39,122 bases of DNA. Origin: a virus. The notes beneath the pieces are model-generated. The model was not told the DNA's origin and ran no database searches. It was given only the letters and a program-made list of their open reading frames with translations. Position numbers and translations under genes: made by a program. Positions within the stretch are counted from its first letter, which is position 1; every line of letters begins with the position of its first letter. Positions 1 through 39,122 of the stretch are shown one piece after another. The DNA lies in IMG/VR virus record IMGVR_UViG_3300038607_000022, one strand, 5' to 3'.

Positions 1-37
1 ACGGAGCGCTTGCGTCTCCGTTAATGAGGGTTATGAA
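1..37 (+). promoter_or_regulatory. Conserved hairpin-plus-tail element, copy 1 (same bases as 38996-39032)
   Basis: ACGGAG-CGCTTGCGT-CTCCGT hairpin followed by TAATGAGGGTTATGAA. A paralogous copy lies on the minus strand at 30040-30076 with compensatory stem changes. Confidence 0.5.
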
Positions 38-127
38 CTCATCGGAGCAGTTAAATAGAGTTTATGTAGTAATATAAATCTAAAGCTTAACTAGAGATAA
101 GAAAATGAAAACAATACAAGATACAGA
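1..127. repeat. Terminal direct repeat, identical to 38996-39122 (circular closure or assembly overlap)
   Basis: Base-by-base identity of the first and last 127 nt. The ORF starting at 105 begins inside the repeat and continues after it. Confidence 0.95.
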
Positions 128-615: not shown

Positions 616-1179
616 ATGACAAGTAAAACACCGCTGGTTTATACCGCAATGAATAATGTAAGTGATGCGCTTAGTGTTGGTATTGCCAAGAATAGCCAAA
701 ACCAACAGCAACGATATAAGTTCCGAGGTATAGACGATGTACTAAATCATTTATCGCCGCAGCTAGCTAAAAACAAACTGGTTATCACGCCGACAGCAAA
801 AGAGCGGACGGTAACAGAAAGGAGCACAAAAAATGGCGGCATTTTGTTTTATGTAACATTGCTTATCGATTACGTTTTTACGTCAGTCGAGGATGGTAGC
901 CAGCACGTTGTGACAGTTTATGGCGAGGCTATGGATAGCGCAGATAAAGCGACAAACAAGGCGTTATCAGCTGCTTATAAGTACGCTATGATACAGGCTT
1001 TTTGCATTCCAGTTGAAGGTATGCATGACGCCGACAGTGTAACGCTTGAGGTCTCAGGGCGTAACGCGCCGGACGCCAACGCGCAATCATGGATAGATGC
1101 TATAAATAACGGACAAACAACACTTCAAGAAATATCGGACGAGCAATATAGGAATTATATTTCTCAGTACGTAAAATAA
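616..1179 (+). CDS. erf: Erf-family single-strand annealing protein
   Basis: YKFRGIDDV and GEAMDSADKATNKALSAAYKYAMIQAFCIP resemble the Erf signature. AGAGG RBS. Sits next to ssb. Confidence 0.8.
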   Translation: MTSKTPLVYTAMNNVSDALSVGIAKNSQNQQQRYKFRGIDDVLNHLSPQLAKNKLVITPTAKERTVTERSTKNGGILFYVTLLIDYVFTSVEDGSQHVVTVYGEAMDSADKATNKALSAAYKYAMIQAFCIPVEGMHDADSVTLEVSGRNAPDANAQSWIDAINNGQTTLQEISDEQYRNYISQYVK

Positions 1180-1226: not shown

Positions 1227-1739
1227 ATGAGTGTAAATAAAGTTCTTCTTCTGGGAAATGTAGGTAAAGACCCAGAGATTAGATATTCAAATGACGGAAC
1301 AGCTTTCGCCAATTTAACACTGGCAACATCTGAGAAATGGAAAGATAAACAAACGGGTGAGCAGAAGGAAAAAACAGAGTGGTCAAACCTTGTTTTTTCT
1401 GGTCGATTAGCTGAGGTTGTTGGTCAGTATGTAAAAAAAGGCTCTAAACTTTATGTTGAGGGCAAATTGAATACGCGCAAATGGCAAGACCAGCAAGGTC
1501 AAGACCGATACACCACAGAGATTAAGGTTTTAAGCATGGAGATGCTAGATAGCAAGCCTGCGAACCAAGGAACGCAACAGCCTGTTAATCAAGCCTTCCA
1601 ACAACCACAACAACAAGGCGGCTTTAACCAGTCGCCACAGCAGCACACAGGCGTTAATCAGGTGCAACAATCACCGCAACAATGGCAGCAACAGCAAGCG
1701 GGATTTCAAGGAGGTCAACAGCAGATGCCGGGAAAGTAA
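1227..1739 (+). CDS. ssb: Single-stranded DNA-binding protein, zero-frame product lacking the acidic tip
   Basis: OB-fold N-terminus ([16 protein letters not shown]...[15 protein letters not shown]...[10 protein letters not shown]) and a Q/G/P-rich linker. Ends PGK-stop without the usual DDDIPF tail. Confidence 0.9.
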
Positions 1740-36040: not shown

Positions 36041-36391
36041 ATGAGAAATACAGAAGCGGTAACGATAACTTACGAATACCTAAACAAGTACAAAACACCA
36101 AAGGGAGGCTACAACAGAAAACAGGTTGAAGCACTTGGACTGAGCTGGCCGCTAGTCTCTGGCTGGAAAGGTGAATTAATAGGAAAGGTGCTCACTGCCG
36201 AGAAAGCAAATATTTTTGAGTCAGCAGCTAAAAAACCGAATAAAAAACAGCCTAAGCAAAGCTTTAAGATTGACGATTGTATTGAATATTTATTCAAAAA
36301 TACTGATAAGTTAACAATGCAAAATATAGCTAAACTTAGATTTGTTGAAAGAAAATGGCGTGATGTTTGCGGATTAACACATAAGGAATAG
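36041..36391 (+). CDS. Hypothetical protein, first gene of the rightward operon
   Basis: AAGGTG RBS. 116 aa. Confidence 0.65.
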   Translation: MRNTEAVTITYEYLNKYKTPKGGYNRKQVEALGLSWPLVSGWKGELIGKVLTAEKANIFESAAKKPNKKQPKQSFKIDDCIEYLFKNTDKLTMQNIAKLRFVERKWRDVCGLTHKE

Positions 36392-36395
36392 CAAA

Positions 36396-36734
36396 ATGAA
36401 ATTCGAAATAACTTTAGAACTAATAGAAGAAATGGCTGAATGTATTCATGATTGCTCATGGGTTAGCGGCGAAGAAATTGCAGCTTATATGAAATCATGC
36501 GTTACTGATGGTAACTACGACCCGGAAGATTGGAGCGAGAAAGGTCAAGGCCATATCGCAAAAGAGCGAAGCACTGTTAAGAGTGAGTTTCGACCAACTA
36601 AAGAAAGACTTGAAGAAATAGCAAAGCAGGGTGCTGAACTTTTTTTATGTGACGCAAGTGATAATTCTTGGAAATATAATCGTGATTGTGATTGCTGGGA
36701 GCCGCAAGAGTCAATTCAAGATAAAGAGGAATAA
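36396..36734 (+). CDS. Hypothetical acidic protein
   Basis: AAGGAATAGCAAAATG initiation region shared with the next two genes. Confidence 0.65.
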   Translation: MKFEITLELIEEMAECIHDCSWVSGEEIAAYMKSCVTDGNYDPEDWSEKGQGHIAKERSTVKSEFRPTKERLEEIAKQGAELFLCDASDNSWKYNRDCDCWEPQESIQDKEE

Positions 36735-36739
36735 ACAAA

Positions 36740-37648
36740 ATGATTAATATTGTTGGCATGTCTGGTGGAAGAAGTAGTCTCCACTTGGCTAGAAAGCTTC
36801 AGTTAATGGGCTATAATCCTGTTTGTTTATTTGCGGACACTGGATTTGAGCATGATGAAACATATAGTTTTATAAAAAGATGCGTTAGCGAATTTAATTT
36901 AAATGCTCACTTTATACGCGCAGAAGTTAACGGCGAAGGTGTTGGTAATACGCCTATAGAGTTAAGTATTGATGATATAGGGTATAGGCCAGAAACCTTT
37001 GCTGCTCACTTCGCTAAATATGGTACTCCTACTTTCCACGCCAAGAATTGCACAGACAGGCTAAAGGGGATTGTCATGGACAAATGGAAGGATGAAAATT
37101 TCGGACGAAAAAACTATGTTACATGGACTGGTTTTAGAGCTGATGAAACGAGAAGGATTAAGGATAGAGAGCAGCAATTAGAATTAGTCGGTTTTGAAGC
37201 AGATAAGAAAAAAGTAAAAGTAAATACAAATCAAAGGTATTTAGCTGACATTTCCGAAGAATCAAAAAGCGACATCATTAAGATGTGGAAGGATTCAGAT
37301 TTTGATTTAGGGATTGGCGAGCATAATGGTAATTGTCTTTTTTGTATTCACAAGTCTTGTGAGAAGCTAGCCCTATCGGCGAGAGAGAACCAAGAGAAAG
37401 CTTCTGATTGGATTGAATTAGTTAACGATTCAAATGTAAGAACAATGCCAAGAAACAAGCAGTTACCTCCTGATATAATGTATAGAGGATATCATTCATT
37501 AAACTCAATAATTAACACATTTAAAGATTATTCCAATGGTGACCTTGCTGAAGCAATAAATAAGGGAAGAAAGTTTGATAGCGGGTCTTGCTCAGAGTCT
37601 TGTGACCCGACACCGCAACTTTCACTTGTTCTTGACGACCATTATTAA
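36740..37648 (+). CDS. PAPS-reductase-family PP-loop protein
   Basis: N-terminal IVGMSGGRSS PP-loop, FADTGFEHDETY, and Cys motifs GNCLFC and SGSCSESC. Confidence 0.7.
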   Translation: MINIVGMSGGRSSLHLARKLQLMGYNPVCLFADTGFEHDETYSFIKRCVSEFNLNAHFIRAEVNGEGVGNTPIELSIDDIGYRPETFAAHFAKYGTPTFHAKNCTDRLKGIVMDKWKDENFGRKNYVTWTGFRADETRRIKDREQQLELVGFEADKKKVKVNTNQRYLADISEESKSDIIKMWKDSDFDLGIGEHNGNCLFCIHKSCEKLALSARENQEKASDWIELVNDSNVRTMPRNKQLPPDIMYRGYHSLNSIINTFKDYSNGDLAEAINKGRKFDSGSCSESCDPTPQLSLVLDDHY

Positions 37649-37667
37649 CACATAAGGAATAAACAAA

Positions 37668-37889
37668 ATGAGCAATGTAAAAAGTATTTTCCCTGCAAAT
37701 GATTTCAGTGTCATTTGTGATAACGCATCTAAAGAGGTCGAGTGCGGGATTATTATTGGGTATGACGAAGAAGGTGCACTTTGCGTTTATGGTGGCGGAC
37801 TGCTTGACGGTAGGCAACCCTTACAAAAGGATTGGCTGTGGATGATTGAAGCTTTCAAGTTAAAAATGATGAATGGTGATTATTGCTAA
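37668..37889 (+). CDS. Hypothetical protein
   Basis: AAGGAATAAACAAAATG initiation region. Confidence 0.65.
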   Translation: MSNVKSIFPANDFSVICDNASKEVECGIIIGYDEEGALCVYGGGLLDGRQPLQKDWLWMIEAFKLKMMNGDYC

Positions 37890-38995: not shown

Positions 38996-39122
38996 ACGGA
39001 GCGCTTGCGTCTCCGTTAATGAGGGTTATGAACTCATCGGAGCAGTTAAATAGAGTTTATGTAGTAATATAAATCTAAAGCTTAACTAGAGATAAGAAAA
39101 TGAAAACAATACAAGATACAGA
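38996..39122. repeat. Terminal direct repeat, identical to 1-127
   Basis: Exact identity with the window start. Confidence 0.95.

What the first reader, a model, noticed from the sequence alone, without database searches (positions are those of the whole stretch)
36373..37672. Near-identical 17-27 nt initiation regions bracket the PAPS-reductase cassette
- ATTAACACATAAGGAATA plus CAAAATGA occurs at 36373-36399 and at 37644-37671. The 18-nt core is exact.
- AGGAATAAACAAAATGA occurs exactly at 36727-36743 and at 37655-37671.
- Three consecutive genes (36396, 36740, 37668) therefore start with almost the same sequence. The two-gene segment, a 112-aa acidic protein plus a 302-aa PP-loop PAPS-reductase-like protein, is flanked by direct repeats 1271 bp apart.
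- Repeats like this are substrates for cassette gain and loss by homologous recombination, and this phage encodes Erf.
- The role of PAPS-reductase-like proteins in phages is unresolved. Nucleic-acid modification or counter-defence have been suggested.
Basis: partly seen in the sequence, partly recalled or inferred. Interest (0 to 1): 0.6.

Follow-up and report, generated by a model that had tools for sequence, protein, structure and literature searches.

The report
Repeated gene-junction leader around phage ninC
Three neighbouring accessory genes of an uncultured marine phage start with copies of one 28-base junction (stop codons, ribosome site, start codon), which most likely marks the seams where these genes were pasted together by recombination: a real example of an already known kind of phage mosaic seam, with no sign yet that the genes come and go.

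Summary
An 18-nt exact repeat (36373/37644) and a 17-nt exact repeat (36727/37655) sit at three consecutive gene starts. They are the longest non-trivial exact direct repeats in the genome and are far outliers among 2,850 pairs of gene-start leaders (next best 11 nt), so this is not ordinary RBS context.

The repeat is a self-contained junction module. It has TAA in all three frames, an AAGGA Shine-Dalgarno, an A-rich spacer and ATG. Both upstream genes lose similarity to their homologs just before it and end inside it, in different frames. Homologs of the 112-aa and 73-aa genes in other phages have unrelated leaders, so the module was copied within this lineage. All three repeat-to-repeat deletions would leave the flanking genes intact.

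Several points do not support an active cassette:
- About 15 near-identical public assemblies carry all four genes in similar numbers.
- No related phage with the element was found.
- The "112-aa + NinC" pair is not conserved elsewhere.
- The repeats are at or below the minimal pairing length reported for Red-beta.

The 302-aa protein is a lambda NinC homolog (PP-loop fold, five invariant cysteines). This scan has reported similar repeated gene-start linkers on other DNA (e1-2918494, e1-5891063). Verdict: a new member of a known kind, of modest interest.

The parts
36373..36399 (+). Junction copy B1 (27 nt): 18-mer + G + CAAAATGA. Here the 18-mer is coding: it gives the last codons (L T H K E, stop TAG) of the 116-aa gene. 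It also holds the SD AAGGA and the ATG of the 112-aa gene.
36727..36743 (+). Junction copy B2 (17 nt exact = right part of B3). The 112-aa gene ends GAG GAA TAA inside it. It holds the SD and the ATG of ninC.
37644..37671 (+). Junction copy B3 (28 nt, the complete form). It has TAA in all three frames at element positions 3, 10 and 17. ninC stops at the first TAA (37646-37648). It holds the SD AAGGA, a 9-nt A-rich spacer and the ATG of the 73-aa gene.
36041..36391 (+). 116-aa basic protein (pI 9.7), first gene of the block. It has a conserved core (TPKGGYN.KQVEALGLSWPLVSGWK). Its C-terminal tail CGLTHKE is absent from its only two homologs and is encoded largely by the repeat.
36396..36734 (+). 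112-aa acidic, Cys-rich protein. The N-terminal ~50 aa form a two-helix module shared with many marine phage contigs, where the family is 57-81 aa long. The C-terminal ~50 aa are unique to this lineage.
36740..37648 (+). 302-aa NinC homolog. It is a PP-loop ATP pyrophosphatase of the PAPS-reductase superfamily with motif SGGRSS at residues 8-13 and invariant Cys104, 199, 202, 284 and 288. Two extra residues (HY) follow the point where the closest homolog ends.
37668..37889 (+). 73-aa acidic protein of a widespread marine phage family (15 clusters at 58-75% identity, including Tara). Homologs in other phages have unrelated leaders and neighbours.
616..1179 (+). Erf-like single-strand annealing protein, the candidate recombinase for exchanges at short repeats. 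It lies about 2.9 kb downstream of ninC on the circular map.
1227..1739 (+). SSB, partner of Erf. It was used as the anchor to fetch 80 related loci.

Best explanation
The repeat is a 28-nt portable junction module. It carries TAA in each of the three reading frames, then the Shine-Dalgarno AAGGA, a 9-nt A-rich unstructured spacer and ATG(A). The module was copied as DNA within this phage lineage to three consecutive gene boundaries. The copies are the seams left when unrelated accessory genes (the 112-aa gene, ninC, the 73-aa gene) were stacked one by one behind the 116-aa gene by recombination.

Today each copy ends the upstream ORF, whatever its frame, and starts translation of the next gene.

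Shown: copy origin, lineage specificity and junction anatomy.

Inferred: the copying happened by recombination at or near the module, either homologous exchange at a shared linker or integration of a circular gene-plus-leader. Also inferred: Erf/SSB can occasionally recombine the copies, which would remove ninC alone (928 bp), the 112-aa gene alone (343 bp) or both (1271 bp) without harming neighbours.
For: - The identity is far beyond any other pair of leaders in the genome: 18 and 17 nt against a maximum of 11 among 2,850 pairs. Other genes match the 17-mer at <=13/17. Only three copies exist.
- The shared part extends 10 nt upstream of the SD. It is coding in B1 (LTHKE*) but lies behind the ninC stop and out of frame in B3. 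So it was copied as DNA and did not converge as an RBS.
- Both upstream genes lose homology within 8 nt of the left edge. Homologs of the 116-aa protein end ...DLVK or ...EIINK, whereas the window adds CGLTHKE. The closest NinC homolog (58% identity) ends ...LLLDD, whereas the window adds HY and then stops at the module's first TAA.
- The module has TAA in all three frames. That is true of 0.06% of 19-nt windows and 2 of 76 leaders.
- Leaders of 112-aa homologs and of 73-aa homologs in other phages are unrelated to the module. Four other ninC phages have no repeated leaders.
- The four genes have independent sets of relatives that never share a contig-length fingerprint.
- All three repeat-to-repeat deletions leave the upstream ORF unchanged and the downstream gene with an intact leader.
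- Erf and SSB are encoded.
- Precedents exist: module exchange through short conserved flanking sequences (Clark et al. 2001, as cited in PMC2327257), PeSL cassettes (PMC2839356), deletions at direct repeats in the Sf6 nin region (PMC5630979), and Erf-type recombinases that drive mosaicism (PMC3945230).
Against: - No relative shows gain, loss or replacement at the repeats. About 15 near-identical assemblies carry all four proteins in similar numbers.
- The 18-mer was found in no related phage in IMG/VR or the metagenome collection. There is therefore no evidence that it is a linker shared by a phage population.
- Exact identity of 17-18 nt is below the 23-27 bp pairing segment quoted for Red-beta (PMC3945230).
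- The order and mechanism of the copying events cannot be reconstructed from one genome.
Confidence: 0.6

Rival explanations
1. Shared translational control. The three leaders are kept identical because the three genes must be translated alike. They could share a strong, unstructured, A-rich initiation region, or an operator for one translational repressor, CsrA-like protein or small RNA. The copies would have arisen by gene conversion and be held by selection. Their role as recombination seams would be incidental.
For: - The element lies within the ribosome-binding window and is unstructured in all three contexts, with z-scores of +0.8 to +1.3.
- All three genes lie in one transcription unit without internal promoter or terminator.
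- A second, looser family of similar leaders occurs at other early genes, which suggests some selection on leader type.
Against: - No regulator is identified.
- B2 lacks the left 11 nt, so any operator would have to be the SD-spacer-ATG part alone.
- Selection on translation does not explain why both upstream ORFs lose homology exactly at the left edge.
- It also does not explain why homologs elsewhere use unrelated leaders.
- It still needs a DNA-copying event to create the identity.
Confidence: 0.22
2. One-off scar. A single out-of-register or illegitimate exchange between two related genomes duplicated the end of the 116-aa gene plus its downstream leader behind ninC. The repeats are a consequence of that event. 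They are not a reusable substrate and have no further role.
For: - B3 carries an out-of-frame copy of the last codons of the 116-aa gene.
- There is no polymorphism in about 15 assemblies.
- The element is absent from all other sequences searched.
Against: - A single event explains B1/B3 but not the separate exact 17-nt identity of B2 with B3.
- The tail LTHKE is not native to the 116-aa family either. B1 is therefore itself a joint and not the source.
Confidence: 0.13
3. Chance or compositional coincidence in an AT-rich genome, or an assembly artefact.
For: The genome is AT-rich (about 40% GC). One unrelated, eukaryote-like contig (L006) shares 24 nt with B3 by coincidence.
Against: - Shuffles and simulations argue against chance.
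- Two overlapping repeats both sit in register with gene starts.
- The repeats are far shorter than the assembler overlap of 127 nt.
- The proteins recur on about 15 independent contigs.
Confidence: 0.02

Closest known systems
Short conserved boundary ('linker') sequences of lambdoid phages (modular theory; Clark et al. 2001 on HK620, as cited in PMC2327257)
   Same: Both are short sequences at gene boundaries in the non-essential early or nin-type region, and they flank individual accessory genes including ninC-type genes. Both are proposed to be sites of homologous exchange by phage Rad52-like recombinases.
   Different: Those linkers are defined by being shared between different phages in front of different genes. 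Here the element was found only within one genome lineage, and no exchange at it has been seen.
PeSL (promoter-early stem-loop) cassettes of T4-type phages (PMC2839356, PMC4122927)
   Same: Both are repeated regulatory modules that bracket small accessory genes. Recombination between neighbouring copies would delete genes or release circles.
   Different: PeSLs are promoter plus terminator hairpin units. This module has no promoter and no hairpin. It acts on translation (stops, SD, ATG), is only 28 nt long and has three copies.
Lambda NinC / phage PAPS-reductase-like proteins (phrog_424, phrog_33262; PF01507)
   Same: The 302-aa protein aligns end to end with annotated NinC proteins (38% identity over 99%). 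It has the PP-loop and the conserved cysteines.
   Different: It sits near the start of the rightward early operon, not in a nin region between the replication genes and Q. It is not fused to a Dam methyltransferase as in several Vibrio and Morganella phages. Its function is unknown; lambda ninC is non-essential (PMC10695390).
Direct-repeat-mediated deletions in phage accessory regions (Sf6 nin region, PMC5630979; T7 and lambda examples cited there)
   Same: Short direct repeats flank dispensable early genes in a phage. That paper studied a headful packager, for which deletions are tolerated.
   Different: Those deletions were observed experimentally. Here they are only predicted.

Membership tests
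Phage boundary/linker sequences (Clark et al. 2001 sense) | Short conserved sequence located exactly at gene boundaries of accessory genes | tested here: met
   The three copies run from the end of the upstream ORF to ATGA of the next gene.
Phage boundary/linker sequences (Clark et al. 2001 sense) | Same sequence present in related phages, flanking different genes, with exchanges mapping to it | tested here: inconclusive
   The exact 18-mer was not found in any related contig of IMG/VR or the metagenome collection. Leaders of homologs are unrelated.
PeSL cassettes | Sigma-70 early promoter inside the repeated unit | tested here: not met
   No promoter-like site overlaps any of the three copies.
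PeSL cassettes | Stem-loop terminator inside the repeated unit | tested here: not met
   No terminator was found. The leaders fold less well than shuffles.
PeSL cassettes | Mini-circles or indels between copies in sister phages | not testable with these tools
   This needs reads or lysate DNA. The contig counts give no hint of indels.
NinC / PAPS-reductase-like PP-loop proteins | N-terminal PP-loop (SGGxxS) in a Rossmann-like ATP pyrophosphatase fold | tested here: met
   SGGRSS at residues 8-13 has invariant S8, G9, R11 and S13. PF01507 scores 23.2 bits against a cut-off of 22.5. The AF2 model (pLDDT 82) matches MnmA, CysH, TtuA, LarE and GMP synthase.
NinC / PAPS-reductase-like PP-loop proteins | Full-length similarity to annotated phage NinC | tested here: met
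   38% identity over 99% of the length to P22-like NinC. There are 523 phage records with a match. phrog_33262 gives E 1e-59.
Bona fide PAPS reductase (CysH) | Similarity over the whole CysH domain, including the C-terminal catalytic Cys motif | tested here: not met
   Profile matches to CysH structures cover only positions 3-62. The C-terminus instead carries the conserved SGSCSESC. It should not be called a PAPS reductase.
Integron-type gene cassettes | attC-like imperfect inverted repeat at the cassette end and an integrase nearby | tested here: not met
   No inverted repeat or hairpin is present at the copies. No integrase was seen among the neighbours scanned.

The most novel reading that the evidence does not exclude
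The 28-nt module (three-frame stop + SD + ATG) is a working, promoter-less 'plug' for accessory genes. Erf/SSB annealing at the copies would continually excise single genes as circles, each carrying one leader, and re-insert them at any other copy in co-infecting phages. That would be an integrase-free, translation-level cassette system in marine temperate phages.
Probability: 0.1. Interest if true: 0.6.

Novelty: new member of a known kind. Interest (0 to 1): 0.3.

Why it matters
It gives a well-resolved, small example of how phage accessory genes are joined. The junction ends any incoming reading frame and restarts translation, so genes can be stacked or removed without damage to their neighbours. 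If exchange at such junctions were shown, it would add a translation-level counterpart to the promoter/terminator cassettes of T4-like phages. It would also support homologous recombination, as opposed to illegitimate recombination, as the origin of some mosaic joints. As it stands it is descriptive. It also corrects the annotation: the 302-aa protein is a NinC-type PP-loop enzyme with conserved cysteines, not a PAPS reductase, and it has no conserved partner gene.

Tried and rejected
- DNA searches of the region and of half the genome against GenBank phages, near and distant modes: no match.
- tblastn of the 116-aa and 73-aa proteins against phages: no match.
- Exact 18-mer in IMG/VR: one unrelated hit. 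In metagenome contigs: 49 hits, all unrelated. L006 shares 24 nt but looks like a eukaryotic contig and was rejected as coincidence.
- Single-protein locus scans for NinC, the 116-aa and the 73-aa proteins in IMG/VR found nothing. Family-alignment scans found only distant relatives: 38-40% for the 116-aa family and 57-66% for the 73-aa family.
- 80 SSB-anchored loci: none carries the 116-aa or 73-aa genes. Whole-record searches of the five closest phages matched only the first ~140 nt of the 112-aa gene.
The ~15 near-identical contigs and the contigs of the closest homologs could therefore not be read. Contig-length fingerprints were used as a weak substitute.
- Idea that ninC is generally bracketed by repeated leaders: rejected on four phages.
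- Idea that the small N-domain protein is a functional partner of PAPS-reductase-like enzymes: rejected. Only 3 of 6 phages have any PP-loop gene nearby, of different subfamilies, and two complete genomes have none. The genes upstream of ninC in other phages are unrelated.
- A fourth diverged copy at the leader of gene 21363: not significant.
- The fold of the 112-aa protein was low in confidence (pLDDT 62) and was not searched further.
- The weak YafN-like hit (21.7 bits against a cut-off of 99) was disregarded.

Full report
**Observation.**
- Copy B1 (36373-36399) is ATTAACACATAAGGAATA, then G, then CAAAATGA.
- Copy B3 (37644-37671) is the same 18-mer, then AA, then CAAAATGA.
- Copy B2 (36727-36743), AGGAATAAACAAAATGA, is identical to the right 17 nt of B3.
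- The three copies end in the start codons of three consecutive genes: 36396 (112 aa), 36740 (302 aa) and 37668 (73 aa).

**Not chance.** Apart from a 127-nt end overlap that only shows the contig is a circular assembly, these are the two longest exact direct repeats of the genome. In 200 Markov simulations the longest repeat reached 18 nt three times. I compared the leaders of 76 gene starts pairwise. The two pairs share runs of 18 and 17 nt, while the best of the other 2,848 pairs shares 11. Other genes match the 17-mer at 13/17 at most. A gapped scan finds only these three copies. So the "ordinary RBS context" alternative is rejected.

**Anatomy.**
- The complete form (B3) carries TAA at element positions 3, 10 and 17, one in each reading frame. 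Then come AAGGA, a 9-nt A-rich spacer and ATG. Three-frame TAA occurs in 0.06% of 19-nt windows and in 2 of 76 leaders.
- The upstream genes end inside the element in different frames. The 116-aa gene reads TTA ACA CAT AAG GAA TAG (LTHKE*). The 112-aa gene ends GAG GAA TAA at the same stop position. ninC ends at the first TAA (CAT TAT TAA).
- The only two homologs of the 116-aa protein end ...DLVK and ...EIINK and lack the tail CGLTHKE.
- The closest NinC homolog (P0002, 58% identity) ends ...LLLDD, while the window adds HY before the stop.
- Both upstream genes therefore lose homology within a few bases of the element's left edge. The element's right edge is the start codon. It is an independent junction unit onto which the upstream ORFs run.
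- The part upstream of the SD is coding in B1 and non-coding and out of frame in B3. So the identity reflects copying of DNA, not convergence of ribosome sites.
- The leaders are unstructured. The block 36041-37889 has no convincing internal promoter or terminator.

**Relatives.**
- No GenBank phage matches the region or half the genome at DNA level.
- The exact 18-mer occurs in no related contig of IMG/VR or the metagenome collection. The only longer match (L006, 24 nt) lies in a contig that does not look like a phage.
- Homologs of the 112-aa gene in five phage contigs share only its first ~140 nt (70-77% DNA identity, starting at the ATG) and have unrelated leaders.
- That protein family is normally 57-81 aa long. 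The window's C-terminal ~50 aa are unique.
- Five phage contigs with 73-aa homologs have unrelated leaders and neighbours.
- Four other ninC phages have no repeated leaders around ninC and have unrelated upstream genes.
- Homologs of the four genes never share a contig-length fingerprint.
- The genes thus have independent histories, and the shared leader is specific to this lineage.

**Test for gain and loss.** As a substitute I counted the contigs that carry each exact protein: 116-aa 14; 112-aa 11 plus 3 variants; NinC 15; 73-aa 15; neighbours 12-15. This gives no hint of presence/absence polymorphism, but it is a weak test because these assemblies are nearly identical. In silico, crossovers B1xB3, B2xB3 and B1xB2 delete 1271, 928 and 343 bp. 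Each leaves the upstream protein unchanged and the downstream gene with an intact leader. The design therefore permits clean loss of either gene or both.

**The proteins.**
- The 302-aa protein is a NinC homolog. It is 38% identical over 99% of its length to NinC of P22-like Salmonella phages, and 523 phage records match it. phrog_33262 gives E 1e-59, and PF01507 is just above its cut-off.
- It has the PP-loop SGGRSS and five invariant cysteines.
- Its model (pLDDT 82) resembles PP-loop enzymes such as MnmA, CysH, TtuA and LarE only generally. It has a weak SspD match. Similarity to CysH covers only the first ~60 residues, so it should not be called a PAPS reductase.
- In other phages the domain is fused to a Dam methyltransferase. 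This hints at a nucleic-acid-modification role but is not evidence for one here.
- Lambda ninC is non-essential (PMC10695390).
- The small N-domain protein is not a regular partner of such enzymes.

**Interpretation.** The best reading (confidence about 0.6) is that the element is a portable junction copied by recombination while this accessory block was assembled gene by gene. It now serves as terminator of the upstream ORF and initiator of the next. Precedents:
- short conserved flanking sequences that mediate module exchange in lambdoid phages (Clark et al. 2001, as cited in PMC2327257);
- PeSL cassettes of T4-type phages (PMC2839356);
- deletions at direct repeats in the Sf6 nin region (PMC5630979);
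- Erf-type recombinases that drive mosaicism (PMC3945230).

The same paper quotes minimal efficient pairing segments of 23-27 bp for Red-beta and 31-34 bp for RecA. The 17-18 nt of exact identity (27/28 with an indel) would therefore support only rare events.

Rivals: selection for a shared translational signal (about 0.2), a one-off scar of an out-of-register exchange (about 0.13), and chance or artefact (about 0.02).

**Earlier notes of this scan.** Other agents reported repeated gene-start linkers on other genomes. One also brackets a PP-loop ATPase (e1-2918494), and another lies in a Prevotella-type phage (e1-5891063). I did not test those. They indicate that the kind of feature is recurrent, not new.

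**Verdict.** It is a new member of a known kind, with interest about 0.3.

Noticed in passing
window 1-127 and 38996-39122: These two stretches are an exact 127-nt repeat at the two ends of the window. This is the assembler overlap of a circular contig. The true genome length is about 38,995 bp, and the rightward block continues from 39122 into the erf/ssb genes.
   Followed up: partly
window 35001, 35210, 35445 (- strand starts); 37957, 38494 (+ strand starts): There is a second, looser family of similar leaders (AATT.ATTAGGAGA.AATAAA-RTG; 25 nt at 88% between two copies). It occurs at three consecutive leftward early genes and two rightward ones, and several copies also have stops in all three frames.
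   Followed up: partly
window 36396-36535: The first ~47 codons of the 112-aa gene are a module shared at 70-77% DNA identity with otherwise unrelated marine phage contigs (G002-G005, L003). Homology starts at the ATG and stops mid-gene, so the gene is itself a mosaic. The conserved residues include Cys16, Cys20 and Cys35.
   Followed up: partly
P0071 (cluster of P0055): One member of the small N-domain family comes from a Psychromonas sp. MAG. Together with about 40% GC, this hints at a Psychromonas-like marine gammaproteobacterial host.
   Followed up: no
L149 2501-3940 (Vibrio phage 41E34.2); P0014: NinC-type PP-loop domains are fused to a phage Dam (N6-adenine) methyltransferase domain in several Vibrio and Morganella phages.
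   Followed up: no
window 37668-37889: The 73-aa protein belongs to a widespread, well-conserved marine phage family (invariant GGG..G.QP..KDWLW), found in Tara Oceans and many metagenomes. It has no known function and no Pfam or PHROG match.
   Followed up: partly
window 36041-36391: The 116-aa basic protein has a strongly conserved core (TPKGGYN.KQVEALGLSWPLVSGWK). Distant relatives (38-40%) occur in two viral contigs and in a Variovorax genome. No family is assigned.
   Followed up: partly
L006 284-307: A 24-nt exact match to copy B3, again just before an ATG, lies in a 3-kb metagenome contig with poor coding density that looks eukaryotic. I judged it a coincidence.
   Followed up: partly
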